Below are positions 37,197 to 51,110 of a stretch of 64,000 bases of DNA, piece by piece. Position numbers and translations under genes: made by a program. Every line of letters starts with the position of its first letter. Within the stretch, counting starts at the first letter, position 1. Where the stretch lies: the NCBI RefSeq assembly GCF_036917095.1, contig NZ_JBALFH010000002.1:35074-99073 (forward strand). Direction: 5' to 3'. The notes beneath the pieces were generated by a model. The model was not told the origin of the DNA, searched no databases, and saw only the letters and a list, made by a program, of their open reading frames with translations. The DNA comes from Nostoc sp. (GTDB lineage Bacteria; Cyanobacteriota; Cyanobacteriia; Cyanobacteriales; Nostocaceae).

Positions 37197-37288
37197 CGGA
37201 GAGGGAGGGATTCGAACCCTCGGTACGGAGTTGCCTGCCGTACAACAGATTAGCAATCTGCCGCTTTCGACCACTCAGCCACCTCTCC
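37197..37288 (-). tRNA. trnS: tRNA-Ser(GCU), class II, canonical
   Basis: The reverse complement is GGAGAGGUGGCUGAGUGGUCGAAAGCGGCAGAUUGCUAAUCUG...GAGGGUUCGAAUCCCUCCCUCUCCG, with anticodon loop UUGCUAA, a long variable arm and a canonical T loop. Confidence 0.9.
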
Positions 37289-40146: not shown

Positions 40147-41235
40147 ATGAGTGGATCGCAGGAGCTAAAACACTTTGGACATCACCTGATTTTAGGTATT
40201 TCCGGCACTACACTAAGCGATGACGATAAACGCGCACTCAGTGAATTAAAGCCGATTGGGGTGATATTTTTTGCTAAAAACTTTTTGGATGGCACTCCAT
40301 ATCAGGTTTGGTTAGAAAGCTTCAAGGATTTAAACGACCAGATACGAGAATATGCTGAACGTGATTCAATGTTTATGACTCTGGATCATGAAGGAGGTCG
40401 TGTAATTCGCACACCAATGCCAATTACGCGATTTCCTCATGCATTGTTGTTGCGATCGCACGCCTATGAAGTAGCAAAAGCCACAGCATTAGAACTAAAA
40501 TCACTGGGAATAAATTTATCATGGGCACCTGTAGCAGATATTTTTTCCCATCCCCACAACCCTGTGATTGGGCCTCGCGCCTTTGGTAACACTCCCGAAA
40601 CTGCTACTCAAGGTGCGCGTGATTATTACCTTGGACTTCGAGATTCAGGAATTTTGGGATGCGCCAAGCACTTCCCCGGACATGGAGACACCAGTAAAGA
40701 CTCTCACATTGAGCTACCAATACTGAATTTAACTCTAGAAGACCTGCGACTTCGAGAACTTATACCCTTTAAAACCTTAATCGAAGTACAGATTCCTTTG
40801 ATTATGACTGTCCATATCTTATTTCCCAAGATAGATCCTGATGTGCCAGGAACGCTTTCTCAGGCTATCCTCAAAACCATACTTAGAGAGGAACTTGGCT
40901 TTGAGGGAGTAGTTGTATCTGATGATTTGGATATGAAAGCGATCTCAGATATATTCATGAAAGCTGGTACTGTGGCGCGGTCATTTAATGCAGGCTGCGA
41001 TCTGTTTATTGTGTCGCGTAATATTAATTCATCATCTATTGAAAGAACTTATCGGATTGCTGAAGATTTCGTAGATTCCCTCAGTAACGGTAGCTTAGAT
41101 GAAGCAGTCGTAGAAGCAGCTAGAGAAAGAATTGAGAAACTATTGGCAGTAACACCGCAATATCCCGTAAGTGCTCTGGATAAAGATATACTATTGCAAC
41201 ATGCTGAACTAGCGATCGCTAGTTCCTATTCATAA
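40147..41235 (+). CDS. nagZ: Beta-N-acetylhexosaminidase (GH3, NagZ)
   Basis: 362 aa with KHFPGHGDTSKDSH and the GVVVSDDLDMKA motifs of GH3 NagZ. Confidence 0.88.
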   Translation: MSGSQELKHFGHHLILGISGTTLSDDDKRALSELKPIGVIFFAKNFLDGTPYQVWLESFKDLNDQIREYAERDSMFMTLDHEGGRVIRTPMPITRFPHALLLRSHAYEVAKATALELKSLGINLSWAPVADIFSHPHNPVIGPRAFGNTPETATQGARDYYLGLRDSGILGCAKHFPGHGDTSKDSHIELPILNLTLEDLRLRELIPFKTLIEVQIPLIMTVHILFPKIDPDVPGTLSQAILKTILREELGFEGVVVSDDLDMKAISDIFMKAGTVARSFNAGCDLFIVSRNINSSSIERTYRIAEDFVDSLSNGSLDEAVVEAARERIEKLLAVTPQYPVSALDKDILLQHAELAIASSYS

Positions 41236-41334
41236 CCCAAGTGCATTCAAGTTGCATATTAGCGATTGCCAAAAGGCTAACTAAGATTGCATTTCTTATT
41301 TTGAATTTTAAATTTTAAATTTTTAATTATTTAG

Positions 41335-41405
41335 TGGGTGGTATAGGGGTCGAACCTATTTCTGCGGGTTAAAAGCCCGCTGCACAGCCGGTATGCCAAC
41401 CACCC
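41335..41405 (-). tRNA. trnK: tRNA-Lys(UUU). Last gene of the array.
   Basis: Acceptor GGGUGGU/ACCACCC, anticodon arm GCGGG-CUUUUAA-CCCGC, T arm AUAGG-UUCGACC-CCUAU. No encoded CCA. Confidence 0.7.
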
Positions 41406-41464
41406 TAGTTAATTTGAAAAAAAAATGAGCAAGTGCAATTTGTAATACCAACATTAGATATAAA

Positions 41465-41536
41465 TCCACCAGGGAGGTACTGCCCCTCCTATTTCTGTGT
41501 TATCAGCACAGCGCCTCGCTTTTCGGCTTCAGGTGG
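41465..41536 (-). tRNA. tRNA-Ile(GAU)-like, atypical
   Basis: Anticodon arm CUGUG-CUGAUAA-CACAG. The T loop is GGCAGUA instead of UUCRANU. There is one U-U mismatch in the acceptor and a 3-bp D stem. Confidence 0.4.
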
Positions 41537-41542
41537 AAAAAG

Positions 41543-41625
41543 AGGAAGATGGAGGAATCGAACCCCTACAGTTGCCCGTACTCCAAGGTTCAAGCTTGGT
41601 TGCCGTCCATTCAGCAGCATCTTCC
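41543..41625 (-). tRNA. trnS: tRNA-Ser(UGA), class II (83 nt)
   Basis: Acceptor GGAAGAU/AUCUUCC, anticodon arm CCAAG-CUUGAAC-CUUGG, a long variable region and T loop UUCGAUU. Confidence 0.6.
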
Positions 41626-41632
41626 ATTCAGG

Positions 41633-41707
41633 GGTATCTGACGGGGCTTGAACCCGCTATGACTGGTTCCACAAACCAGCGCCTCGACCACTTTGGCTTC
41701 AGACACC
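41633..41707 (-). tRNA. trnH: tRNA-His(GUG) with encoded G-1
   Basis: G-1 opposite C73, acceptor GUGUCUG/CAGAUAC, anticodon arm CUGGU-UUGUGGA-ACCAG, T loop UUCAAGC. Confidence 0.75.
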
Positions 41708-41713
41708 AAAAGT

Positions 41714-41786
41714 GGATACTGGTCGGATTTGAACCGACATCTTTCTGCTTGCAAGGCAGACGCTTTCCCAGTTAAGCTACAGACCC
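41714..41786 (-). tRNA. tRNA-Ala(UGC)-like with a defective acceptor stem
   Basis: Anticodon arm UCUGC-CUUGCAA-GCAGA and T arm GUCGG-UUCAAAU-CCGAC. The acceptor GGGUCUG versus CAGUAUC has two mismatches and lacks the G3-U70 pair. Confidence 0.4.
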
Positions 41787-41793
41787 ATTAAAC

Positions 41794-41820
41794 CAATTCG
41801 CAATTCGCAATTCGCAATTA
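41794..41820. repeat. Heptamer tandem repeat (CAATTCG x3)
   Basis: caattcgcaattcgcaattcgcaatta is read directly. Confidence 0.8.
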
Positions 41821-41821
41821 C

Positions 41822-41890
41822 GTTTTGTGACGGGGATTTAAACCCCGACACAAAACACGCTGCTTCCATAAGCAGGGGACTTAAACCCCC
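41822..41890 (-). other. Two T-arm-like hairpins (possible tRNA remnants or minihelices)
   Basis: The minus strand reads GGGGG-UUUAAGU-CCCCU, then GUUUUGUG-U-CGGGG-UUUAAAU-CCCCG-U-CACAAAAC. The second is an acceptor-like helix stacked on a T-arm-like hairpin. Confidence 0.35.
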
Positions 41891-41982
41891 AAACTTTATT
41901 AAATAAGTTACCAGTTAACAGTTCGTTCGCGTTGGGGTAGCCTGCTGTTAGACATAGTGCAATCGTAATCTACAAACTCAGT

Positions 41983-42639
41983 TTATTTACTGCTATAAAG
42001 TTTTGCCCAATAACCTCTAGGAGGTTTCTCAATCTCATAAGCTTTACACCATTTTTCTACTGCCTTATCACTTACACCAAAATCTTGAGCTATGTGAGCA
42101 GTTGGTTTAGTCCATACTAGCTCGTGTAATTCTTCTTTAGATGGACGTTCAACCTTTCTAGACTTAGGTCTTGCCGAATAACGCCTTTTCATTTTTACTC
42201 GGCTTGCTTGACGTTGAAAATCTTTAATATTCCCGTTGAAAACGTTTGATTTAATTTCGAGAAAGTCCTCCCACCAATAAAAAGGAGAACTAATATTGGG
42301 TAGATCGGTTCTAATTATGATACCTCGGTAATCAAAACTGGGGTAAATAACCCGATCTTTATCTGGTAAGTAAATGGCGTAGTAATCAAAATCATCTTTC
42401 TGATACTGGCGTTTATGATTTCCATGCTTATCATTCCATGATGTATTAGCGAAAATTCGCCCAATGCTAGAATATTTAACCTGGATTTTCAGAAAGTTAT
42501 TTTCCTTCCATGCTACTAAATCAAATGGCAAGTGTTCGCAAATCAAAGGGGTGAAAATTACATAACCTTTAACAGTCAAATCAGCTATGGTTTTCGCTAC
42601 AGCTAGGTCTGCTTTTCCTTTTGTATGATGAGTGTTCAT
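41983..42639 (-). CDS. PD-(D/E)xK endonuclease of the group-I-intron-associated (I-Ssp6803I-like, PDDEXK_5) type with a C-terminal HTH-like tail
   Basis: 218 aa. The N-terminus TKGKADLAVAKTIADLTVKGYVIFTPLICEHLPFDLVAWKENNFLKIQVKYSS fits KG..aE..v...l...G..V..P......DLv......l.iQVK. The C-terminus is HIAQDFGVSDKAVEKWCKAYEIEKPPRGYW. Confidence 0.65.
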   Translation of the reverse strand: MNTHHTKGKADLAVAKTIADLTVKGYVIFTPLICEHLPFDLVAWKENNFLKIQVKYSSIGRIFANTSWNDKHGNHKRQYQKDDFDYYAIYLPDKDRVIYPSFDYRGIIIRTDLPNISSPFYWWEDFLEIKSNVFNGNIKDFQRQASRVKMKRRYSARPKSRKVERPSKEELHELVWTKPTAHIAQDFGVSDKAVEKWCKAYEIEKPPRGYWAKLYSSK

Positions 42640-42641
42640 GA

Positions 42642-42690
42642 ATTGAACCTAAATAATAAGAACAAATTTATCATTATTTAGGTTCAATTA
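42642..42690. repeat. Perfect 15-bp inverted repeat immediately upstream of the endonuclease ATG
   Basis: ttgaacctaaataat ... attatttaggttcaa with a 15-nt loop. Confidence 0.75.
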
Positions 42691-42700
42691 TGCCCACCCA

Positions 42701-42744
42701 CTGAGTATGGCGTACTCAGATGCTACCGATTACATCACACCCGC
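42701..42744 (-). pseudogene. Truncated tRNA-Gly-like 5' part: acceptor, D arm and anticodon arm with GCC
   Basis: GCGGGUGUGAUGUAAUCGGUAGCAUCUGAGUACGCCAUACUCAG shares its first 15 nt with the adjacent tRNA-Gly(UCC). No T arm or 3' acceptor strand follows. Confidence 0.5.
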
Positions 42745-42753
42745 AATGTTCAG

Positions 42754-42824
42754 AGCGGACGGCGAGATTTGAACTCGCACGAAGACGGTGGAAACGTCTC
42801 ATGCTGCCGTTACATCACACCCGT
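42754..42824 (-). tRNA. trnG: tRNA-Gly(UCC)
   Basis: Anticodon arm AGACG-UUUCCAC-CGUCU and T arm GCGAG-UUCAAAU-CUCGC. The acceptor ACGGGUG/CGUCCGC has an A1-C72 mismatch and two G-U pairs. Confidence 0.65.
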
Positions 42825-42828
42825 ATCA

Positions 42829-42901
42829 AGCTGGTAACAGGAATTGAACCTGCAACCTACTGATTACAAGTCAGTTGCTCTGCCAATTGAGCTACACCAG
42901 C
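42829..42901 (-). tRNA. trnT: tRNA-Thr(UGU)
   Basis: GCUGGUGUAGCUCAAUUGGCAGAGCA-ACUGA-CUUGUAA-UCAGU...GCAGGUUCAAUUCCUGU-UACCAGC-U. Confidence 0.8.
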
Positions 42902-42909
42902 ACTAATTT

Positions 42910-42987
42910 TGGTGACGGGGGCAGGAGTCGAACCTGCCGATATTCAGGTTATGCAGCCCCACGAGCCACCGTTGCTCTATCCCCGCA
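42910..42987 (-). tRNA. Aberrant tRNA (Met/fMet-like CAU or Cys GCA) with an apparent 8-nt anticodon loop. CCA is encoded.
   Basis: The loop is CUGCAUAA between poorly paired UGGGG/CCUGA. There is a mismatch at acceptor position 1-72, the T arm is GCAGG-UUCGACU-CCUGC, and the 3' end is ACCA. Confidence 0.4.
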
Positions 42988-42997
42988 TATTCACCAA

Positions 42998-43070
42998 TAC
43001 CCCTGACTGGATTTGAACCAGCAACCTCTTCGTTCTAGGCGAAGCGCCTCTTCCGTTGGGCTACAAGGGC
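42998..43070 (-). tRNA. Class I (short variable arm) tRNA with the Leu anticodon UAG
   Basis: GCCCUUGUAGCCCAACGGAAGAGGCG-CUUCG-CCUAGAA-CGAAG-AGGUU-GCUGGUUCAAAUCCAGU-CAGGGGU-A. It has C33, G1-U72 and A73. Confidence 0.55.
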
Positions 43071-43073
43071 AAA

Positions 43074-43148
43074 GTCTGAGTGGCAGGGATTGAACCTGCG
43101 ACCTGGAGTTCCCAAAACTCCCGCGCTCCCAACTGGGCTACACTCAGA
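43074..43148 (-). tRNA. trnP: tRNA-Pro(UGG), copy 1
   Basis: Acceptor UCUGAGU/ACUCAGA, anticodon arm GGAGU-UUUGGGA-ACUCC, T loop UUCAAUC. Confidence 0.7.
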
Positions 43149-43153
43149 TATTT

Positions 43154-43229
<76 letters not shown>

Positions 43230-43233
43230 TTAG

Positions 43234-43307
43234 TACCCCTGACAGGATTTGAACCTGCAAAATCTGGACTCTGATTCCAGCACGTATGCCAGTTCCGTCA
43301 CAGGGGC
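43234..43307 (-). tRNA. Class I tRNA with the Leu anticodon CAG
   Basis: GCCCCUGUGACGGAACUGGCAUACGUG-CUGGA-AUCAGAG-UCCAG-AUUUU-GCAGGUUCAAAUCCUGU-CAGGGGU-A. Confidence 0.6.
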
Positions 43308-43310
43308 ATA

Positions 43311-43383
43311 TCGGGATGGCAGGATTTGAACCTGCGACTCCATGCTCCCAAAGCATGGCTTCTGGCCGCTGAATTACATCCCG
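43311..43383 (-). tRNA. trnP: tRNA-Pro(UGG), copy 2
   Basis: CGGGAUGUAAUUCAGCGGCCAGAAGC-CAUGC-UUUGGGA-GCAUG...GCAGGUUCAAAUCCUGC-CAUCCCG-A. Confidence 0.8.
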
Positions 43384-43384
43384 T

Positions 43385-43462
43385 TGGTACTCCTGGTGGG
43401 AGTCGAACCCACAACCAAACAGATTTTAAGTCTGTCACCTCTTCCAATTGGGCTACAGGAGC
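43385..43462 (-). tRNA. Class I tRNA with the Leu anticodon UAA. CCA is encoded.
   Basis: GCUCCUGUAGCCCAAUUGGAAGAGGUG-ACAGA-CUUAAAA-UCUGU-UUGGUU-GUGGGUUCGACUCCCAC-CAGGAGU-ACCA. Confidence 0.6.
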
Positions 43463-43468
43463 AAATTT

Positions 43469-43545
43469 TGGTGCTCTTGGTGGGAATCGAACCCACAACA
43501 TACCGTTTTTGAGACGGCAGCCTCTTCCAGTTGGGCTACAAGAGC
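43469..43545 (-). tRNA. Class I tRNA with the Leu anticodon CAA. CCA is encoded.
   Basis: GCUCUUGUAGCCCAACUGGAAGAGGCU-GCCGU-CUCAAAA-ACGGU-AUGUU-GUGGGUUCGAUUCCCAC-CAAGAGC-ACCA. Confidence 0.65.
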
Positions 43546-43550
43546 AAGTT

Positions 43551-43626
43551 TGGCAGCCCCGCCAGGACTCGAACCTGGAATCTTCGCCTTCAAAGGGCGC
43601 TATGTTGCCAATTACACCACAGGGCT
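43551..43626 (-). tRNA. trnQ: tRNA-Gln(UUG). CCA is encoded.
   Basis: Acceptor AGCCCUG/CGGGGCU, anticodon loop CUUUGAA, T arm CCAGG-UUCGAGU-CCUGG, G73-CCA. Confidence 0.75.
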
Positions 43627-43629
43627 TTA

Positions 43630-43702
43630 TTGCCAGGGCAGGGTTTGAACCTGCAACCTCATCGTTCAGAGCGATGCGACTTACCAATTCGTCCACCCGG
43701 CA
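43630..43702 (-). tRNA. trnQ: tRNA-Gln(CUG)
   Basis: Acceptor UGCCGGG/CCUGGCA, anticodon arm CAUCG-CUCUGAA-CGAUG, T loop UUCAAAC. Confidence 0.75.
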
Positions 43703-43707
43703 ATGAT

Positions 43708-43782
43708 TGGCTGCCTCAGTAGGACTCGAACCTACAACCGCGCGGTTAACAGCCGCTTGCTCTACCGTTGAGCTATGAGGCA
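43708..43782 (-). tRNA. trnN: tRNA-Asn(GUU). CCA is encoded.
   Basis: UGCCUCAUAGCUCAACGGUAGAGCA-AGCGG-CUGUUAA-CCGCG...GUAGGUUCGAGUCCUAC-UGAGGCA-GCCA. Confidence 0.8.
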
Positions 43783-43788
43783 ACGAAG

Positions 43789-43863
43789 CCCCCCAGGTCG
43801 GAATCGAACCGACGACCTCCTGTTCTTCAGACAGGCGCTAACTACCAACTGAGCTACCGGGGG
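43789..43863 (-). tRNA. trnF: tRNA-Phe(GAA)
   Basis: Acceptor CCCCCGG/CUGGGGG, anticodon arm CCUGU-CUGAAGA-ACAGG, T arm GUCGG-UUCGAUU-CCGAC. Confidence 0.7.
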
Positions 43864-43870
43864 ATAAGGA

Positions 43871-43937
43871 GGAGAGATAGGTTTTACCCAGTGGACTGGT
43901 TTAATTCAACTCGAATTAGCCACTCCATCATCTCTCC
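43871..43937 (-). other. 67-nt tRNA-Ser-like remnant or structured spacer without a T arm
   Basis: GGAGAGAUGAUGGAGUGG...CCUAUCUCUCC has a perfect 7-bp terminal helix GGAGAGA/UCUCUCC and a Ser-like 5' end. The interior folds as a hairpin (UAAUUC-GAGUU-GAAUUA), not a cloverleaf. Confidence 0.35.
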
Positions 43938-43944
43938 CATGTAA

Positions 43945-44019
43945 CGAGAGTGGAGGGATTTGAACCCTCACGTCTTCAGTTTCGTAGACTGAGATGTTAT
44001 CCAGTTACACCACACTCTC
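43945..44019 (-). tRNA. trnR: tRNA-Arg(ACG)
   Basis: Acceptor GAGAGUG/CACUCUC, anticodon arm UCAGU-CUACGAA-ACUGA, T arm GAGGG-UUCAAAU-CCCUC. Confidence 0.75.
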
Positions 44020-44023
44020 AAAA

Positions 44024-44113
44024 CGGAGAGAACAGGATTTGAACCTGCGACGGATATTAACTACCCGTTTCCTCTTAGCAGGAGGACGCTTTCAGCCACT
44101 CAGCCACCTCTCC
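44024..44113 (-). tRNA. trnS: tRNA-Ser(GCU), class II. Array copy.
   Basis: GGAGAGGUGGCUGAGUGGCUGAAAGCG-UCCUC-CUGCUAA-GAGGA, a long variable arm, then GCAGGUUCAAAUCCUGU-UCUCUCC-G. Confidence 0.8.
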
Positions 44114-44117
44114 ATAG

Positions 44118-44200
44118 TGGGTCGAGCAGGATTTGAACCTGCGTGCAAAAAAGAACAGTTTTACAGACTGTCGCCTTCAGCCAGACTCGGCCACCGACCC
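44118..44200 (-). tRNA. trnY: tRNA-Tyr(GUA), class II
   Basis: GGGUCGGUGGCCGAGUCUGGCUGAAGGCG-ACAGU-CUGUAAA-ACUGU, a 12-nt variable region, then GCAGGUUCAAAUCCUGC-UCGACCC-A. Confidence 0.7.
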
Positions 44201-44207
44201 ATAATCA

Positions 44208-44279
44208 TTCCCTCGACGAGAATTGAACTCGCATCTGTGCTTTGAAAGAACACTGACTTAACCATTAGTCCACGAGGGC
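44208..44279 (-). tRNA. trnE: tRNA-Glu(UUC). Array copy.
   Basis: Anticodon arm GUGUU-CUUUCAA-AGCAC and T arm GCGAG-UUCAAUU-CUCGU. The acceptor GCCCUCG/CGAGGGA has a G1-A72 mismatch. Confidence 0.65.
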
Positions 44280-44341
44280 ATAATTTACCGAATTTTAGAT
44301 TTTGGATTAAATTTATTAATCTAAAATCTAAAATTGTCTGA

Positions 44342-44413
44342 CACAGGGACTAGGATTTGAACCTAGAACATCGGATTTGGAGTCACGAGGTGTTACCGTT
44401 ACACCATCCCTGC
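44342..44413 (-). tRNA. tRNA-Trp(CCA)-like with a disrupted anticodon stem (possible pseudogene)
   Basis: The loop CUCCAAA is typical of tRNA-Trp, but the flanks CGUGA/UCCGA give only 2 to 3 base pairs. The acceptor GCAGGGA/UCCCUGU and T arm CUAGG-UUCAAAU-CCUAG are intact. Confidence 0.4.
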
Positions 44414-44416
44414 ATT

Positions 44417-44493
44417 TGGTGGCAGCGGCGGGATTTGCACCCGCATATACCAGGGTATGAACCTGGGGCTTTGCTGATTAAGCTACGCTGCGA
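44417..44493 (-). tRNA. trnM: tRNA-Met(CAU) with a 1-72 mismatch. CCA is encoded.
   Basis: Anticodon arm CCAGG-UUCAUAC-CCUGG and T loop UGCAAAU. The acceptor CGCAGCG/CGCUGCC has C1-C72 unpaired, which is initiator-like. The 3' end is ACCA. Confidence 0.6.
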
Positions 44494-44496
44494 CAG

Positions 44497-44570
44497 AGGT
44501 CAGGGCGGGATTTGAACCCGCGCTAATCGGTTTTGCAGACCAACGCCTTCAACCACTTGGCTACCTGACC
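44497..44570 (-). tRNA. trnC: tRNA-Cys(GCA)
   Basis: Acceptor GGUCAGG/CCUGACC, anticodon arm UUGGU-CUGCAAA-ACCGA, U73 discriminator. Confidence 0.8.
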
Positions 44571-44573
44571 ATT

Positions 44574-44650
44574 TGGGAGTCCCGACGAGATTTGCACTCG
44601 CAATCTTCAGTTTGAGAAACTGACGGCTTAAACTATTCGCCTACAGGACT
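44574..44650 (-). tRNA. trnE: tRNA-Glu(CUC). CCA is encoded.
   Basis: Acceptor AGUCCUG/CGGGACU, anticodon arm UCAGU-UUCUCAA-ACUGA, T loop UGCAAAU, C73-CCA. Confidence 0.65.
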
Positions 44651-44654
44651 ACAA

Positions 44655-44728
44655 CCAGGGTGACGGGACTTGAACCCGCAACATTTCCGCAGACAACGGA
44701 ACGCTCTAGCCAGTTGAGCTACACCCCG
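44655..44728 (-). tRNA. trnD: tRNA-Asp(GUC). First gene of the array.
   Basis: Acceptor CGGGGUG/CACCCUG, anticodon arm UUCCG-UUGUCUG-CGGAA, T arm GCGGG-UUCAAGU-CCCGU, G73. Confidence 0.75.
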
Positions 44729-44738
44729 ATTTTTGGGA

Positions 44739-44778
44739 ATCTGTGCCTAAACTTTTAGGTTTTTAGGCACAGATTTTG
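44739..44778. repeat. Perfect 14-bp palindrome at the upstream edge of the tRNA array
   Basis: aatctgtgcctaaa cttttaggtttt tttaggcacagatt, 11 nt from the 5' end of the first tRNA. Confidence 0.7.
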
Positions 44779-45230
44779 TTGGTGAACTTGCCCATTTCTT
44801 ATTTAGTTTTCAAGGTTCAGAAAATTTACTGTTAGAAACTGTTAGGAAAACAACCAACACTCTAGGTAGCAAGCCTGTTATGTATTACGGATGTATTCAG
44901 TGGTTTTGATGAGTGCAAACTTAGAACTTTTTTCGTTTATTGCCTCTACTGCCGATGGTTTACAAGTAGAAACAGCTTTGTTGACTGGGGACTTTGGTTT
45001 ATTCCAACGCCTGTCCTTTAGTTGGATGTAGAACATAAATTTGACTCTTGAGAAGCTTTGTCTTTCGCCTCACTACAAATATACTACAAAATACTACAAG
45101 AGGTGTCAAGGGGTTTTAGAAAGTTTTTTTGAAATTGTCTAGAAAAGCTTCTGCGCTTAGATTTGACCTTGCTAAACCCTCTGAAAACTAAAACTACAGC
45201 TTATGATTGGTTGATCTTTAAAAGCCTGAC

Positions 45231-46067
45231 GTGACAGACAACTCCTTGAAGCGACAACAGATAATTAGTATTGTCGCGATCGCCTCTACGATTACAGCTT
45301 GTAGTATCACCCCACAACTGGGGTTGAACAAGCCTTTAAGCAAAATCCATATTGCACAAGTTCAAGCTCATCCAGCAAAGGGCCAAATTAATGCCCAACT
45401 ACCGCCAGCCAAAGTAGAAAACCCTACCTTTACAATCCCAGCTAAATTTCAAGGAAAAACTGTTTATCAGGTGCATCCCAGGAATAACGAGAAGGTTATT
45501 GCTCTAGGCATTGATGATGGGCCCTGGCCGAAGACAACCCTAGAAATGCTGGGTATCCTGAAGCAAAATGATGTTAAGGTGACATTTTTTTGGGTAGGAC
45601 AAGCTTTGCAAGCAAATCCCGACCTAGCCAAGCGTGAGGTAGCCGAGGGACACGCCATTGGCAACCATACTTGGCATCATTGGTATCGGCGAATGGATGA
45701 AGCTACAGCCAAGAGTGAAATCGATCGCACAGCCGACCTGATATACAAAACCACAGGAGTTAAAACTGCTCTGTTTCGTCCTCCTGGAGGCTTTTTAAAT
45801 AACGGACTAGCCGCTTACGCCAAAAGCCAGAAAGACGCTGTAATTATGTGGTCGCTAACTTCAGCTGATACCGATCCTCACGCCAAACCGCAGGCATTTG
45901 TAAATAATGTCCTGAAAGGCGCGAAACCTGGTTCTATTGTTTTAATGCATGACGGTGGTGGCGATCGCCAAAGAACTGTAGAAGCTTTGCCACAAATCAT
46001 CAGTGGACTCAAACAGCAAGGCTACCGATTTGTGACAATTCCCGAATTGCTACAAATGGAGCAATAA
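45231..46067 (+). CDS. Polysaccharide deacetylase (NodB homology domain) family protein
   Basis: 278 aa with a GTG start, a signal/anchor segment, and the motifs IALGIDDGPWP, HAIGNHTWHH and LFRPPGG. Confidence 0.85.
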   Translation: MTDNSLKRQQIISIVAIASTITACSITPQLGLNKPLSKIHIAQVQAHPAKGQINAQLPPAKVENPTFTIPAKFQGKTVYQVHPRNNEKVIALGIDDGPWPKTTLEMLGILKQNDVKVTFFWVGQALQANPDLAKREVAEGHAIGNHTWHHWYRRMDEATAKSEIDRTADLIYKTTGVKTALFRPPGGFLNNGLAAYAKSQKDAVIMWSLTSADTDPHAKPQAFVNNVLKGAKPGSIVLMHDGGGDRQRTVEALPQIISGLKQQGYRFVTIPELLQMEQ

Positions 46068-46509: not shown

Positions 46510-47049
46510 TTATTCCAGGTTTGCTTGCATATCTATCCAAAACTGTTCGGCAAAAGAAATCGCGGGGTGCATTGGTGCTTTTGGTTTGGTACGCAGTTGC
46601 ATACCAGCTTCAAACAGGGTGCGATCGCCTTTACGGGAGTTACATCTCTCACAAGCTGTGACTACGTTATCCCAAGTGTGAGAACCGCCTTTAGAACGCG
46701 GCATCACATGATCTAGCGTTAAATGTTTGGCGCTGCCGCAATATTGGCAACTGTGATGATCTCGTCGCAACACTTCCCGCCGATTCACGGGCGGAACTTT
46801 CCACATCCGCTCATTGGAAGTGATTGTCAAGCGAATGTGTTTTGGTACATCAATTACCAGACTGGGTGAGTGAATTTGCCATCCGCCTTCTGTGCTAAAA
46901 CCCAGCGGTTGAGCTTTGTTGCTTACTAACAGCACAATCGCCCGCTTGATATTGACCCGGCACAGTGGTAAGTAATTTTGAGAAAACACCACCACAGATT
47001 GCTCTAACACTTGCATTGCGTTCGCGCCGCGCATGGAAGATATCGTCAC
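46510..47049 (-). CDS. HNH endonuclease domain protein
   Basis: 179 aa with RRDHHSCQYCGS...LTLDHVMPRSKGGSHTWDNVVTACERCNSRKGDR (HNH with a CxxC...CxxC zinc site). Confidence 0.85.
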   Translation of the reverse strand: MTISSMRGANAMQVLEQSVVVFSQNYLPLCRVNIKRAIVLLVSNKAQPLGFSTEGGWQIHSPSLVIDVPKHIRLTITSNERMWKVPPVNRREVLRRDHHSCQYCGSAKHLTLDHVMPRSKGGSHTWDNVVTACERCNSRKGDRTLFEAGMQLRTKPKAPMHPAISFAEQFWIDMQANLE

Positions 47050-47062
47050 AGCTTAACTCCTT

Positions 47063-47102
47063 ATAAAAAAACCCCCGCTTCAAGTTTTCGGTGAAGCGGG
47101 GG
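47063..47102 (-). terminator. Rho-independent terminator
   Basis: The minus strand reads CCCCCGCUUCA-CCGAAAACU-UGAAGCGGGGG followed by UUUUUUUAU, downstream of the 82-aa ORF. Confidence 0.75.
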
Positions 47103-47130
47103 TTAGAATTGACCGGAAAATTTTCTGGTC

Positions 47131-47379
47131 TCATATCGGTACAGTATTTCTTTGCCTGTACCCCCCGCTTTGTTCATCTAGTTCTGGTTTCGCAATCAGC
47201 GCACTAATGCTGAGATATCTAGATTCATAATTACCCTCTGTGATTTGCCCATGATTCCGGCTACCATCGCCCATAAATAAATACTCCACTTCCATAGCAG
47301 CTGATTCCCAACCGGCTCGGCAATTGGTAGCGCAAAAAGAAGTGGAGATGGGGTAAATGGATTTCACAGAAAATTTCAC
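47131..47379 (-). CDS. Small hypothetical protein
   Basis: An 82-aa ORF followed by a strong terminator. No family was recognised. Confidence 0.4.
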   Translation of the reverse strand: MKFSVKSIYPISTSFCATNCRAGWESAAMEVEYLFMGDGSRNHGQITEGNYESRYLSISALIAKPELDEQSGGYRQRNTVPI

Positions 47380-47447
47380 CTATTGAACATTCCTTTAAAC
47401 ATACTACACTTGTATTACTATCCTGTCTATACCTTTAAGGAGAAAAA

Positions 47448-47786
47448 GTGATGCATACGATCGCCCGCACCCCAACCACCGATATGGAAGTTACCAGCAT
47501 CCGCCTAGAGCGGGAACTCAAAGATAAACTCAAAGAAATAGCTGGGAATCAGGGATATCAAGCTCTGATCCGAGATATCCTTTGGAATTATGTCCAGCAA
47601 AAATCAGGTGAGTGGAAGCCTCGATTTTCGCGAACCGACATTCGAGCTAGCATAGCTGCCACAGCTCAGCAAGAAGAACGCTGTGTACTCACAGGTCAAC
47701 TAATTCAACCCCAACAACCAATGTTGTTAGGACTGACGAGGAATGGCGATATGGTTCCTCTGAGCGTCGAGAGTTTGGCTGGATAG
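47448..47786 (+). CDS. Hypothetical protein with a ribbon-helix-helix-like N-terminus
   Basis: 112 aa. EVTSIRLERELKDKLKEIAGNQGYQALIRDILWNYV resembles a CopG/RHH fold. AGGAG lies upstream and a terminator follows. Confidence 0.5.
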   Translation: MMHTIARTPTTDMEVTSIRLERELKDKLKEIAGNQGYQALIRDILWNYVQQKSGEWKPRFSRTDIRASIAATAQQEERCVLTGQLIQPQQPMLLGLTRNGDMVPLSVESLAG

Positions 47787-51037: not shown

Positions 51038-51110
51038 TACCCCCAGGGGAATTCGAATCCCCGTTACCTCCGTGAAAGGGAGGTGTCCTAGGCCTCTAGA
51101 CGATGGGGGC
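51038..51110 (-). tRNA. trnE: tRNA-Glu(UUC), canonical chromosomal copy
   Basis: GCCCCCAUCGUCUAGAGGCCUAGGACACCUCCCUUUCACGGAGGUAACGGGGAUUCGAAUUCCCCUGGGGGUA. Confidence 0.92.

What the first reader, a model, noticed from the sequence alone, without database searches (positions are those of the whole stretch)
41335..44728. 3.4-kb polycistronic-looking array of about 28 tRNA or tRNA-like genes on the minus strand
Twenty-eight cloverleaf-capable units lie head to tail with spacers of mostly 3 to 10 nt. By my manual folding the transcription order is Asp, Glu(CUC), Cys, Met, Trp-like, Glu(UUC), Tyr, Ser(GCU), Arg(ACG), Phe, Asn, Gln(CUG), Gln(UUG), Leu(CAA), Leu(UAA), Pro, Leu(CAG), Leu(GAG), Pro, Leu(UAG), Met/Cys-like, Thr, Gly(UCC). 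The endonuclease gene follows, then Ala-like, His, Ser(UGA), Ile-like and Lys. Nineteen amino acids are nominally covered; I found no Val. Canonical chromosomal tRNAs elsewhere in this window (tRNA-Ser 37197-37288 and tRNA-Glu 51038-51110) are solitary. Similar 'tRNA arrays' are known from some cyanobacteria, for example the cluster on the delta plasmid of Anabaena PCC 7120, and have been linked to survival under translational stress. Their origin and normal role remain unclear. This copy has several unusual members, reported as separate findings.
Basis: partly seen in the sequence, partly recalled or inferred. Interest (0 to 1): 0.7.

Follow-up and report, generated by a model that had tools for sequence, protein, structure and literature searches.

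The report
Stress-inducible tRNA gene array (trn operon)
This is a real chromosomal array of 28 tRNA genes in a Nostoc cyanobacterium, a relative of the known stress-induced 'trn operon' of Anabaena PCC 7120. It has the same repressor-controlled promoter, it lies next to the repressor gene, and a selfish endonuclease gene has replaced its valine tRNA.

Summary
ARAGORN tRNAs on the minus strand at 41334-44729, and Rfam passes 25 of them.

The array is homologous to, and in the same gene order as, the Anabaena/Nostoc PCC 7120 trn operon (an "L-array") and about 55 other Nostocales arrays. Its promoter (45109-45081) carries the published TrcR operator repeats (TGTAGTAT) over the -10 box. The probable repressor gene trcR, with an exact copy of its published operator, lies 2.3 kb upstream, beyond a conserved HNH gene.

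Contigs from one probable RNA run of a related Nostoc span several tRNA genes. They stop at the predicted promoter.

Valine is missing because a free-standing PD-(D/E)XK homing-endonuclease cassette replaced the 3' part of Gly(GCC), Val(UAC) and Arg(UCU).

The five Leu-anticodon tRNAs lack the long variable arm, yet they show strong compensatory covariation. That marks them as constrained RNAs rather than decaying copies.

Most likely mechanism: a polycistronic backup tRNA set, repressed by TrcR and induced under translational stress.

Verdict: a new member of a known kind, of moderate to low interest.

The parts
45068..45109 (-). Promoter of the array. The -35 box TTGACA is at 45109-45104, followed by a 17-nt spacer and the -10 box TAGTAT at 45086-45081. 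Three tandem TrcR-type repeats (TTGTAGTAT 45099-45091, TTGTAGTAT 45089-45081, TTGTAGTG 45078-45071) overlap the -10 box and the expected start near 45074.
   Evidence: The layout is the same as the Anabaena trn promoter. It is conserved upstream of 48 of 57 arrays. The published operator is TGTAGTAT over the -10 box TAGTAT (PMC10272220).
44730..45067 (-). Non-coding leader of about 340 nt, with a 14-bp hairpin at 44773-44740 just before the first tRNA.
   Evidence: The 52-aa ORF inside it carries stop codons in at least 10 related strains. Chromosomal arrays keep a leader of about 350 nt; plasmid arrays have about 85 nt.
42754..44728 (-). First block of 23 tRNA genes, in order of transcription: Asp(GUC) 44728-44655, Glu(CUC) 44650-44577, Cys(GCA) 44570-44497, Met(CAU) 44492-44420, Trp-like 44413-44342, Glu(UUC) 44279-44208, Tyr(GUA) 44200-44118, Ser(GCU) 44113-44024, Arg(ACG) 44019-43945, Phe(GAA) 43863-43789, Asn(GUU) 43782-43711, Gln(CUG) 43702-43630, Gln(UUG) 43626-43554, Leu(CAA) 43545-43472, Leu(UAA) 43462-43388, Pro(UGG) 43383-43311, Leu(CAG) 43307-43234, Leu(GAG) 43229-43157, Pro(UGG) 43147-43075, Leu(UAG) 43070-42998, Met/Cys-like 42986-42914, Thr(UGU) 42901-42829, Gly(UCC) 42824-42754.
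   Evidence: CCA is encoded after Glu(CUC), Met, Asn, Gln(UUG), Leu(CAA), Leu(UAA) and Leu(GAG).
43871..43938 (-). A 68-nt structured element between Arg(ACG) and Phe. It is not a tRNA. It is present in some related strains and genera and absent from others.
   Evidence: A related strain skips it (joint 43866-43939). No Rfam family matches it.
44291..44335 (-). AT-rich palindromic spacer between the Trp-like unit and Glu(UUC).
   Evidence: It varies by insertions and deletions in related strains.
42693..42744 (-). The 5' fragment of a tRNA-Gly(GCC) gene, broken at the junction of T-stem and T-loop.
   Evidence: One search aligns it with intact Gly(GCC) genes in L005, L010 and L016. The same junction occurs in L091.
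41983..42689 (-). Homing-endonuclease cassette. A 17-bp hairpin (42689-42641) abuts the start codon. The ORF at 42639-41983 encodes 218 aa with an N-terminal PD-(D/E)XK nuclease domain and a C-terminal HTH-like domain.
   Evidence: Pfam PF11645, E=9e-19. A weak match to I-Ssp6803I (PDB 2OST) aligns the D...QxK motif. There are more than 500 homologs. Six of seven sampled homologs lie 70-77 nt downstream (3') of a tRNA-Arg(UCU) gene.
41787..41897 (-). A 111-nt repeat-rich insertion with three hairpins and three copies of CGAATTG. Related strains lack it.
   Evidence: joint 41786-41898.
41335..41786 (-). Second block of five tRNA genes: Ala-like (UGC) 41786-41714, His(GUG) 41706-41633, Ser(UGA) 41625-41544, Ile-like (GAU) 41536-41465, Lys(UUU) 41405-41335.
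   Evidence: The Ala-like unit has the body of the Ala(GGC) genes of related arrays joined to a UGC anticodon arm.
46510..47049 (-). HNH endonuclease gene, the ortholog by position of Anabaena alr0856. It is followed by a 130-aa ORF (46493-46101), the counterpart of alr0857.
   Evidence: Pfam HNH. It is 65-71% identical to the array-linked HNH genes on plasmids. The trcR-HNH-ORF130 module is conserved in all 78 chromosomal loci that reach far enough upstream to hold trcR. alr0856 and alr0857 are derepressed in a trcR deletion mutant (PMC10272220).
47401..47786 (+). Probable trcR gene (ORF 47448/47451-47786, 111-112 aa, ribbon-helix-helix). The 18-nt operator ATACTACACTTGTATTAC lies at 47401-47418. 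Read on the minus strand, the same site forms a promoter (TAGACA-17-TAGTAT, 47429-47401) that points towards the HNH gene.
   Evidence: The operator matches the published TrcR operator exactly (PMC10272220). Pfam gives only weak RHH hits. The protein is 72-100% conserved next to HNH in the related loci.

Best explanation
The region is a chromosomal long tRNA array (an 'L-array'), the counterpart of the Anabaena PCC 7120 trn operon. It holds 28 tRNA or tRNA-like genes and one embedded homing-endonuclease gene.

All are transcribed as one precursor from a single sigma-70-type promoter at 45109-45081. Tandem TGTAGTAT repeats cover the -10 box and the start site of that promoter. These repeats bind the ribbon-helix-helix repressor TrcR, whose probable gene lies 2.3 kb upstream.

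Under normal growth the array is kept nearly silent. When translation is impaired, repression is relieved. The precursor is cut by the normal tRNA-processing enzymes, and CCA is added to the units that do not encode it. A second, sequence-divergent tRNA set then joins the pool and helps survival. It may do so as extra substrate for translation, or as replacements or decoys for tRNAs cut by stress-induced RNases.

Shown here: the genes, the homology and shared gene order, the promoter and operator sequences, the linkage to trcR and HNH, the structural constraint on the tRNAs, and RNA-like coverage that starts at the promoter.

Inferred from Anabaena: TrcR binding, induction by stress, aminoacylation and the fitness benefit.

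The array is also a target for mobile endonuclease genes. One of them deleted the Val(UAC) and Arg(UCU) genes in this lineage.
For: - **Gene count.** 27 ARAGORN calls and 25 Rfam calls, plus the Ile-like ortholog.
- **Homology.** BLASTN finds pCC7120delta and 19 other Nostoc plasmids. The backbone order is the same in L001-L003 and in about 55 chromosomal arrays.
- **Promoter.** TTGACA-17-TAGTAT with three operator repeats, almost identical to the Anabaena trn promoter. It is conserved in 48 of 57 arrays. TrcR footprints TGTAGTAT over the -10 box of trn, and the operon is derepressed in a trcR deletion mutant (PMC10272220).
- **Repressor locus.** An exact 18-nt TrcR operator lies 30 nt before an RHH ORF. 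It is arranged divergently from an HNH gene and a hypothetical gene, as all0854 is from asr0855, alr0856 and alr0857.
- **Transcription.** Contigs of run X1 cover about 41600-45085, with zero depth above 45086 and over the neighbouring deacetylase gene. Single contigs span 44069-44502, 44620-45058 and 43118-43359.
- **Selective constraint.** In the Leu-type tRNAs 99.5% of cells are paired and 17 of 20 pairs show changes on both sides. No shuffle out of 500 reached this.
- **Supernumerary copies.** The array Ser(GCU) and Glu(UUC) are only 71% and 58% identical to the solitary copies with the same anticodon in this window.
- **Function in Anabaena.** 100- to 1000-fold induction by ribosome-targeting antibiotics, 23 of 26 tRNAs aminoacylated, presence in polysomes, and a competitive advantage (PMC8421152).
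Against: - No expression data exist for this strain. X1 is a related strain (90-99% identity), its RNA status is only guessed, and contigs carry no strand.
- The identity of the TrcR ORF rests on synteny, the operator and weak Pfam RHH hits (E=0.01, below the cut-off). It was not compared directly with All0854.
- Several members look damaged. These are the Trp-like and Met-like units with 8-nt anticodon loops and uncompensated stem changes, the Ala-like unit with a mismatched acceptor stem, A1 in Gly(UCC), and the truncated Gly(GCC).
- Array size varies from 5 to 31 genes among close relatives, so much of the array is dispensable.
- No terminator was found after Lys(UUU).
- In Anabaena the deletion did not change protein recovery, so how the array benefits the cell is unsettled.
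Confidence: 0.85

Rival explanations
1. The array is mainly a selfish, decaying mobile element. Homing endonucleases (the HNH gene upstream and the embedded cassettes) spread and maintain it, and the host gains nothing. Its tRNAs are drifting towards pseudogenes.
For: - Related strains differ greatly by insertions and deletions, from 5 to 31 genes.
- About 1-kb cassettes carrying PD-(D/E)XK, HNH or other ORFs sit at different positions in different strains.
- This copy has a truncated Gly(GCC), has lost Val and Arg(UCU), and has degenerate Trp-like and Met-like units.
- Arrays occur on plasmids.
Against: - Compensatory covariation keeps the cloverleaf across genera.
- The promoter and operator are conserved in 48 of 57 arrays.
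- The chromosomal position downstream of trcR-HNH is the same across several Nostocales genera.
- Anabaena shows regulated induction, aminoacylation and a competitive advantage.
Confidence: 0.1
2. The array's main role is not to feed translation. It replaces or decoys tRNAs that are cut by stress-induced tRNA-targeting RNases such as VapC-type toxins or anticodon nucleases, and it works together with RtcB repair.
For: - In Anabaena, rtcB is co-regulated with the operon, VapC genes are induced late, and only operonic tRNAs were seen to be cleaved. The authors themselves propose a sponge role (PMC8421152).
- Here the array copies differ by 29-42% from the housekeeping copies with the same anticodon, as expected for variants that are insensitive to a nuclease or act as decoys.
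Against: No toxin or rtcB gene was found next to the array in this window. In Anabaena the operonic tRNAs are charged and found in polysomes. Nothing in the sequence separates this reading from simple tRNA supply.
Confidence: 0.25
3. The array is a relic of a phage or an integrative element, brought in to adjust codon usage for foreign genes.
For: tRNA arrays are known in phages and ICEs (PMC8421152 introduction; PMC4758250). Endonuclease genes inside tRNA clusters recall segB of phage T4.
Against: The flanking genes are ordinary chromosomal genes: phytoene desaturase, a GH3 hydrolase, a polysaccharide deacetylase and trcR. Their order is the same in dozens of Nostoc genomes. No phage, integrase or transfer genes were seen within 5 kb. 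In Anabaena the anticodons did not match the codon usage of stress genes.
Confidence: 0.03

Closest known systems
trn operon (L-array) of Anabaena/Nostoc sp. PCC 7120 on plasmid pCC7120delta (Puerto-Galan & Vioque 2012; Santamaria-Gomez et al. 2021, PMC8421152; Wang et al. 2023, PMC10272220)
   Same: - The backbone order is shared: Asp-Glu(CUC)-...-Tyr-Ser(GCU)-Arg(ACG)-Phe-Asn-Gln-Gln-Leu(CAA)-Pro-Leu...-Met-Thr-Gly(UCC)-...-Ala-His-Ser(UGA)-Ile(GAU).
- The tRNAs are 73-85% identical in DNA.
- Both have Leu tRNAs with a short variable loop, an odd Ile(GAU), and CCA encoded in only some members.
- The promoter has the same layout, with TGTAGTAT repeats over the -10 box.
- An HNH gene with a hairpin and T-run in its leader lies upstream.
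   Different: - This array is chromosomal and lies 2.3 kb from the probable trcR gene. In Anabaena trcR is chromosomal and the array is on a plasmid.
- The leader is about 340 nt rather than about 85 nt.
- The HNH gene here is the alr0856-type paralog (65-71% identical), and a deacetylase gene sits between it and the array.
- This array has extra Cys, Met, Trp-like, Leu(CAG), a second Pro and a terminal Lys(UUU).
- It lacks Val(UAC), Arg(UCU) and the internal Lys.
- It carries a PD-(D/E)XK endonuclease cassette.
Chromosomal tRNA arrays of Nostoc punctiforme PCC 73102 and other cyanobacteria (cited in PMC4758250 and PMC8421152)
   Same: They are the same kind of array in the same genus, and the literature reports them as related to the Anabaena array with the same gene order. 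About 45 Nostoc genomes carry an array at the same site as the window.
   Different: The papers I could read describe neither the linkage to trcR nor the per-strain content. This copy differs from its closest relatives by the endonuclease cassette and the loss of Val and Arg(UCU). It shares that junction with one MAG (L091).
I-Ssp6803I, the PD-(D/E)XK homing endonuclease in the group I intron of tRNA-fMet in Synechocystis PCC 6803 (PDB 2OST; Pfam PF11645)
   Same: Both have the same nuclease fold family, the D...QxK motif aligns, and both are linked to tRNA genes in cyanobacteria.
   Different: The ORF here is not in an intron, and no group I intron was detected. It stands free between tRNA genes. 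It carries an extra C-terminal HTH-like domain of about 70 aa. Its relatives sit 70-77 nt downstream of intact tRNA-Arg(UCU) genes.
segB in the tRNA gene cluster of phage T4 (cited in PMC8421152)
   Same: Both are free-standing homing-endonuclease genes embedded in a tRNA gene cluster. SegB is thought to promote inheritance of the flanking tRNA genes.
   Different: The nuclease family is different (SegB is GIY-YIG, from my own knowledge). SegB is in a phage, not a chromosome. No cleavage data exist for the ORF here.
tRNA array units of Firmicutes, Acidithiobacillus ICEs, mycobacteria and their phages (Tran et al. 2016, PMC4758250)
   Same: It meets the formal definition of at least 20 tRNA genes at a density of at least 2 per kb.
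   Different: There is no sequence relationship beyond generic tRNA similarity; the Bacillus and Priestia plasmid hits cover only 6-8% of the query. Those arrays have no known TrcR-type control.

Membership tests
tRNA array unit (Tran et al. 2016) | At least 20 tRNA genes at a density of at least 2 per kb | tested here: met
   27-28 genes in 3.4 kb, about 8 per kb. The definition is quoted in the abstract of PMC4758250.
Cyanobacterial L-array / trn operon | Sequence homology and shared gene order with the Anabaena 7120 array | tested here: met
   BLASTN hit to NC_003273.1 at 77.8% over 34% of the query. The order of more than 20 genes is shared.
Cyanobacterial L-array / trn operon | All genes on one strand with short spacers, consistent with one transcription unit | tested here: met
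   All genes are on the minus strand and 20 of 26 spacers are 3-12 nt. RNA-like contigs span several genes.
Cyanobacterial L-array / trn operon | Promoter with tandem 9-nt repeats (TrcR site TGTAGTAT) over the -10 box and start site | tested here: met
   45099-45071 holds three repeats, and the -10 box TAGTAT lies inside the second. Compared.
Cyanobacterial L-array / trn operon | HNH endonuclease gene upstream | tested here: met
   HNH gene at 46510-47049. It is the chromosomal alr0856-type, 65-71% identical to the all8564-type.
Cyanobacterial L-array / trn operon | Supernumerary to a complete housekeeping tRNA set | tested here: inconclusive
   Two solitary genes in the window duplicate array anticodons, Ser(GCU) and Glu(UUC), at 71% and 58% identity. 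The rest of the genome is not visible.
Cyanobacterial L-array / trn operon | Silent in standard growth, induced by translational stress, repressed by TrcR | not testable with these tools
   There is only indirect support: low, promoter-bounded coverage in one probable RNA run of a related strain.
Cyanobacterial L-array / trn operon | tRNAs are processed and aminoacylated | not testable with these tools
   Covariation shows structural constraint. Charging is shown only in Anabaena.
TrcR (All0854) repressor, for ORF 47448-47786 | RHH protein, autoregulated through ATACTACACTTGTATTAC about 30-50 nt before its start codon | tested here: met
   The exact 18-mer lies at 47401-47418, which is -47 to -30 from the start codon (motif). 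The Pfam RHH hits are weak and below the cut-off. No direct alignment with All0854 was made.
I-Ssp6803I-like PD-(D/E)XK homing endonuclease (PF11645) | PDDEXK_5 domain with the catalytic D...QxK motif | tested here: met
   PF11645 at 68 bits. D40, Q53 and K55 align with the motif in 2OST.
I-Ssp6803I-like PD-(D/E)XK homing endonuclease (PF11645) | Encoded inside a group I intron | tested here: not met
   No group I intron hit up to E=5 in 41200-45250. The ORF lies between a truncated tRNA gene and an intact one, and its relatives lie downstream of intact tRNA-Arg(UCU) genes.
I-Ssp6803I-like PD-(D/E)XK homing endonuclease (PF11645) | Present in some and absent from other, otherwise syntenic loci | tested here: met
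   It is absent from 77 of the 80 chromosomal loci collected. The three exceptions are distant, differently placed relatives in L006 and L013 and one in L064 (P0039). Those loci have Gly(GCC)-Val-Arg(UCU) at the site instead.
Class II bacterial tRNA-Leu | Long variable arm (tRNA of about 85 nt or more) | tested here: not met
   The five Leu-anticodon units are 73-75 nt with variable loops of 4-5 nt. All 160 found in related arrays are 70-80 nt. A73 and a Leu-like D-arm are kept.

The most novel reading that the evidence does not exclude
The five Leu-anticodon tRNAs with a short variable loop are a natural 'class I' tRNA-Leu family in bacteria. They are strongly constrained and conserved across Nostocales arrays. 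They could be charged differently from housekeeping tRNA-Leu, either with another amino acid or without LeuRS editing. TrcR derepression would then deliberately change decoding under stress. This might contribute to the lower translational fidelity reported for the trcR deletion mutant.

A lesser version of the same idea: the physical linkage trcR-HNH-array marks the chromosomal locus as the ancestral home from which the plasmid arrays, including the Anabaena one, were copied.
Probability: 0.1. Interest if true: 0.75.

Novelty: new member of a known kind. Interest (0 to 1): 0.3.

Why it matters
The array itself is a known kind of element, so finding one is not news. This copy adds four things.

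- **Linkage to the repressor.** In the chromosomes of many Nostocales the array lies directly downstream of the probable repressor locus (trcR, HNH, a small ORF). In Anabaena the two are on different replicons. This suggests where the plasmid arrays came from and gives a compact, self-contained regulatory unit to study.
- **The missing valine tRNA.** Isotypes can go missing through endonuclease-cassette turnover rather than through selection on decoding.
- **Constraint on the odd Leu tRNAs.** The Leu tRNAs without the long variable arm are under clear structural constraint. This makes the questions of which enzyme charges them, and with what amino acid, directly testable.
- **A natural series of arrays.** Dozens of closely related strains carry 5 to 31 genes at the same site. 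This is a natural deletion series for asking which members matter.

Tried and rejected
- **Group I intron.** I tested whether the endonuclease ORF lies in a group I intron that splits the Gly(GCC) gene. Rfam gave no intron hit up to E=5. The anticodon arm of the fragment is intact, and the break is at the T-loop. Related strains have Val and Arg(UCU) at that place. Rejected in favour of a free-standing cassette with an adjacent deletion.
- **Leader ORF.** I tested whether the 52-aa ORF in the leader (44878-45036) is a real first gene. It has in-frame stops in at least 10 related strains. Rejected.
- **Runs of organisms B, C and I.** The RNA-seq runs X2-X18 and X25-X36 were ranked as holding 24-47% of the sampled words. 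When X2 and X10 were laid, only 22-34-nt low-complexity or generic tRNA pieces matched. I treated these as false positives of the index.
- **The 68-nt unit.** I asked whether the unit at 43871-43938 is a decayed tRNA. It folds as a closed multi-stem structure with little covariation and no T-arm. It remains unexplained.
- **Frameshift suppressors.** I asked whether the Trp-like and Met-like units with 8-nt anticodon loops are frameshift suppressors. Their stem changes are not compensated, and variants among strains break pairs. Pseudogenes are the likelier reading.
- **Literature on the short Leu tRNAs.** The three papers I could search never use the term 'variable arm', and a library search found nothing on this. 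The 2012 FEMS paper by Puerto-Galan and Vioque is not in the library, so I make no claim of priority.
- **Terminator.** The scan found no convincing terminator after Lys(UUU).

Full report
**Observation.** ARAGORN finds 29 tRNA genes in the window. Twenty-seven of them lie head to tail on the minus strand between 41334 and 44729. Rfam's tRNA model passes its gathering score for 25 of the 27, at 46.8-72.4 bits. The two failures are Ser(UGA) at 41544-41625, which scores best as tRNA-Sec at 33.6 bits, and the unit at 42914-42986, which scores 23.9 bits.

Twenty of the 26 spacers are 3-12 nt. The exceptions are 62, 81, 138 and 967 nt. That unit folds as a cloverleaf with anticodon GAU and the unusual T-loop GCAGTAC. 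It occurs at the same place, with compensatory changes in three stems, in other arrays, including the Anabaena 7120 operon after His and Ser(UGA). So 28 units is a fair count.

One is a 52-nt 5' fragment of a Gly(GCC) gene (42693-42744). The other is a 68-nt structured unit that is not a tRNA (43871-43938).

**What it is.** A BLASTN search of plasmids with the array finds pCC7120delta of Nostoc/Anabaena sp. PCC 7120 and 19 other Nostoc plasmids, plus Calothrix and Tolypothrix plasmids, at 73-85% identity. ARAGORN on three of them shows the same backbone order.

A scan of one genome per species with an alignment of the upstream HNH protein returned 80 chromosomal loci. In about 45 Nostoc genomes, mostly lichen cyanobionts, an array of 5 to 31 tRNAs lies at exactly the window's position. 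That position is between a polysaccharide deacetylase gene and a GH3 hydrolase gene, with phytoene desaturase beyond. The best HNH identity to the window is 96-97%. Arrays also follow the same HNH module in Tolypothrix, Cylindrospermum, Spirirestis and Plectonema. Fischerella and others have the module without an array.

The literature already records related arrays in Anabaena 7120, N. punctiforme PCC 73102, Acaryochloris marina and Oscillatoria PCC 6506 (PMC4758250). It also states that such arrays occur on chromosomes as well as plasmids (PMC8421152). This is therefore a new member of a known kind.

**Promoter and regulator.** About 345 nt upstream of the first tRNA lies TTGACA (45109-45104), a 17-nt spacer and TAGTAT (45086-45081). 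Three tandem repeats, TTGTAGTAT, TTGTAGTAT and TTGTAGTG, cover the -10 box and the expected start site. The Anabaena trn promoter has the same layout.

Santamaria-Gomez et al. showed that two such repeats over the -10 box and start site are enough to confer trn-like regulation. Wang et al. showed that TrcR footprints TGTAGTAT over the -10 box TAGTAT and that the operon is derepressed in a trcR deletion mutant. With a strict pattern, the promoter is found upstream of 48 of 57 arrays. It lies about 350 nt from the first tRNA in chromosomal arrays and about 85 nt in plasmid arrays.

At 47401-47418 the window holds ATACTACACTTGTATTAC, an exact copy of the published trcR autoregulatory operator. 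It lies 30 nt before a 111-112-aa ORF with a ribbon-helix-helix-like N-terminus. Pfam's RHH hits for that ORF are weak. This ORF is arranged divergently from an HNH gene (46510-47049) and a 130-aa ORF. That matches Anabaena, where all0854 (trcR) faces asr0855, alr0856 (HNH) and alr0857, all derepressed in the trcR deletion mutant.

The trcR-HNH-ORF130 module is conserved in all 78 of the 80 chromosomal loci that reach far enough upstream to hold trcR. The papers I read do not mention that chromosomal arrays are physically linked to trcR. I regard this as a modest new point.

**Transcription.** I found no run from this exact strain. One run flagged "RNA?" (X1) holds contigs from a Nostoc that is 90-99% identical to the window. 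Its depth along 16.5 kb is very uneven. It is 88 over the solitary tRNA-Glu, 23-83 over trcR and the HNH leader, 2-10 over the array, and 0 over the GH3 gene and most of the deacetylase gene. That pattern looks like RNA rather than DNA.

Within the array, coverage runs from about 41600 to 45085 and is zero above 45086, which is the -10 box. It falls from about 10 at the 5' end to about 1 at the 3' end. Single contigs span 44069-44502 (five units), 44620-45058 (two tRNAs plus the leader) and 43118-43359 (four units). The endonuclease ORF is also covered.

This fits one precursor that starts at the predicted promoter. The caveats are that the strain is only related, that contigs have no strand, and that the RNA label is a guess. 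Other listed RNA runs proved to be false positives of the index.

**Why Val is missing.** Related arrays read Thr-Gly(UCC)-Gly(GCC)-Val(UAC)-Arg(UCU)-[Ala(GGC)]-Ala(UGC)-His. In the window, identity to Gly(GCC) runs up to the end of the 5' strand of the T-stem. It is then replaced by a 17-bp hairpin, a 218-aa ORF and about 200 nt of flank before an Ala gene. One Nostoc MAG with a much smaller array (L091) has the identical junction.

The ORF has a PF11645 PD-(D/E)XK domain (E=9e-19). Its D40, Q53 and K55 align with the motif of I-Ssp6803I (PDB 2OST), although the pairwise match is weak (E=0.085). It has more than 500 homologs, which NCBI names "group I intron-associated PD-(D/E)XK endonuclease". 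No group I intron is detectable here.

In six of seven sampled homologs the gene starts 70-77 nt after an intact tRNA-Arg(UCU) gene. Five of these tRNA genes are solitary chromosomal copies. The sixth lies inside another array, between Arg(UCU) and Ala. The cassette therefore sits where Arg(UCU) belongs. The simplest reading is a free-standing homing-endonuclease gene tied to tRNA-Arg(UCU). A later deletion would then have removed the 3' part of Gly(GCC), Val and Arg(UCU). That deletion is an inference.

Other strains carry cassettes of about 1 kb at other array positions. Some have an HNH nuclease fused to the same C-terminal motif (RKVERPSKEEL...FGVSDKAVEKWCKAY.IEKPPRGYWAK). Others encode a microbial-type PARG or unknown proteins. 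The arrays are thus hot spots for modular endonuclease genes. Santamaria-Gomez et al. made a similar comparison with segB of phage T4.

**State of the tRNAs.** The five Leu-anticodon tRNAs are 73-75 nt with variable loops of 4-5 nt, not the long arm of every ordinary bacterial tRNA-Leu. All 160 Leu-anticodon genes in the related arrays are 70-80 nt.

On 49 distinct sequences from several genera, the cloverleaf is paired in 99.5% of cells. Seventeen of 20 pairs show changes on both sides. No shuffle out of 500 reaches the observed values, and sliding the partner columns collapses pairing to 33-45%. A73 is invariant and the D-arm resembles that of tRNA-Leu. These are constrained RNAs, not decaying copies.

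From established work on E. coli LeuRS (my own knowledge, not tested here), A73 and the tertiary core matter for leucylation and the long arm does not. Leucylation is therefore plausible. Anabaena has four such genes and only three of its 26 array genes went undetected, so at least one short Leu tRNA is charged in vivo (this is an inference).

By contrast, the Trp-like unit has an extra base that gives an 8-nt anticodon loop and a weak stem. Variants of it among strains break pairs. The Met/Cys-like unit has an inserted G, giving the loop CUGCAUAA, plus two stem-weakening changes relative to the Met(CAU) form found in most strains. Both are probably pseudogenes.

The Ala-like unit joins the body of the Ala(GGC) genes of related arrays to a UGC anticodon arm, and its acceptor stem is mismatched. 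Gly(UCC) starts with A1 where relatives have G1. Seven units encode CCA and the rest do not. The array Ser(GCU) and Glu(UUC) are 71% and 58% identical to the solitary genes with the same anticodon in this window. This fits a supernumerary, divergent set.

**Mechanism and confidence.**
- The region is an L-array orthologous to the trn operon: about 0.95.
- It is one TrcR-repressed transcription unit that starts near 45074: about 0.8. This rests on sequence identity to mapped Anabaena elements and on the X1 coverage.
- It is induced by translational stress and aids survival: about 0.6. This is carried over from Anabaena.
- How it helps the cell is open even in Anabaena. The candidates are extra tRNA supply, replacement of cleaved tRNAs, and a decoy role for toxin RNases.

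The wide variation in array size among near relatives and the damaged members show that many individual genes are dispensable.

**Novelty and interest.** The kind of element, its regulator and its phenotype are published, and related Nostoc chromosomal arrays are on record. This copy adds four things: the linkage to trcR, the explanation for the missing Val, the link between an endonuclease family and tRNA-Arg(UCU), and quantitative evidence that the short Leu tRNAs are constrained. I rate it a new member of a known kind, with interest about 0.3.

Noticed in passing
window 47401-47786 (+): Probable trcR gene with an exact copy of its published 18-nt operator (ATACTACACTTGTATTAC), only 2.3 kb from the array. 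The trcR-HNH-ORF130 module is conserved in all 78 chromosomal loci that reach far enough upstream to hold trcR, and many have an array just downstream. The papers I read do not mention this linkage.
   Followed up: yes
window 47065-47429 (-): The HNH gene has a leader of about 330 nt. It starts at a promoter that shares the trcR operator and ends in a hairpin plus T-run (47102-47065) right before the HNH ribosome-binding site. The same hairpin and T-run precede all8564 in Anabaena (L001 1750-1790). In run X1 the leader has depth 83 while the HNH ORF has depth 2-3. This looks like an attenuator.
   Followed up: partly
window 41983-42639 (-); L086, L087, L089, L093, L094, L095: The PD-(D/E)XK endonuclease family, which NCBI names 'group I intron-associated', sits 70-77 nt downstream of an intact tRNA-Arg(UCU) gene in six of seven sampled genomes and not in an intron. 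Each copy has a hairpin abutting its start codon.
   Followed up: partly
L014 13533-14501, L030 13448-14498, L042 10471-11347, L071 3643-4520, L006 15056-16177: Cassettes in other arrays encode HNH or PD-(D/E)XK nucleases fused to the same C-terminal motif of about 55 aa (RPSKEEL...FGVSDKAVEKWCKAY.IEKPPRGYWAK). This suggests modular homing endonucleases that share one DNA-binding module.
   Followed up: partly
L007 13940-15196, L014 14733-15704, L087 1156-1992: A 278-288-aa microbial-type poly(ADP-ribose) glycohydrolase gene (PF10021) is embedded in several arrays. A TIGR02452-family gene (alr1372) is listed among the genes derepressed in the Anabaena trcR deletion mutant.
   Followed up: no
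window 43871-43938 (-): A 68-nt structured element between Arg(ACG) and Phe, closed by a 9-bp stem. It is conserved in Nostoc, Tolypothrix and other genera but cleanly absent from many strains. It is not a tRNA and matches no Rfam family.
   Followed up: partly
window 44730-45067 (-): The leader of about 340 nt is conserved in length and partly in sequence across chromosomal arrays of several genera. It does not code for protein, because its ORF has stop codons in many strains. Plasmid arrays have only about 85 nt. Its role is unknown.
   Followed up: partly
window 42998-43545 (-): Five Leu-anticodon tRNAs lack the long variable arm, as do all 160 in related arrays. Many have a G1-U72 wobble pair and all have A73. 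Covariation strongly supports the class I cloverleaf.
   Followed up: yes
window 44342-44413 and 42914-42986 (-): Two units have 8-nt anticodon loops: ACUCCAAA in the Trp-like unit and CUGCAUAA in the Met-like unit. The Trp-like form is fixed in the Nostoc clade, whereas other genera keep a normal Trp(CCA). The Met-like form is shared by about eight strains. The stem changes are not compensated.
   Followed up: partly
window 41714-41786 (-): The Ala-like gene looks chimeric. It has the body of the Ala(GGC) genes of related arrays and the anticodon arm of their Ala(UGC) genes, with two mismatches in the acceptor stem as folded by ARAGORN.
   Followed up: partly
window 41335-41405 (-); L053 12589-12660; L055 11165-11237: The terminal Lys(UUU) is kept in almost every array. 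In two genomes it is the only tRNA left at the site, and in L053 a trn-type promoter still lies 535 nt upstream. In most strains a hairpin plus T-run precedes it; that hairpin is deleted in the window.
   Followed up: partly
window 41787-41897 (-): A 111-nt insertion with three hairpins and three copies of the heptamer CGAATTG is skipped in contigs of related strains. It is probably a small Nostoc repeat element.
   Followed up: no
runs X2-X18 and X25-X36: Many very small RNA-seq runs from unrelated studies were ranked as holding 24-47% of the query words. Of these, X2 and X10 were laid, and only 22-34-nt pieces matched. This appears to be an artefact of the run index for tRNA-rich queries.
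   Followed up: partly
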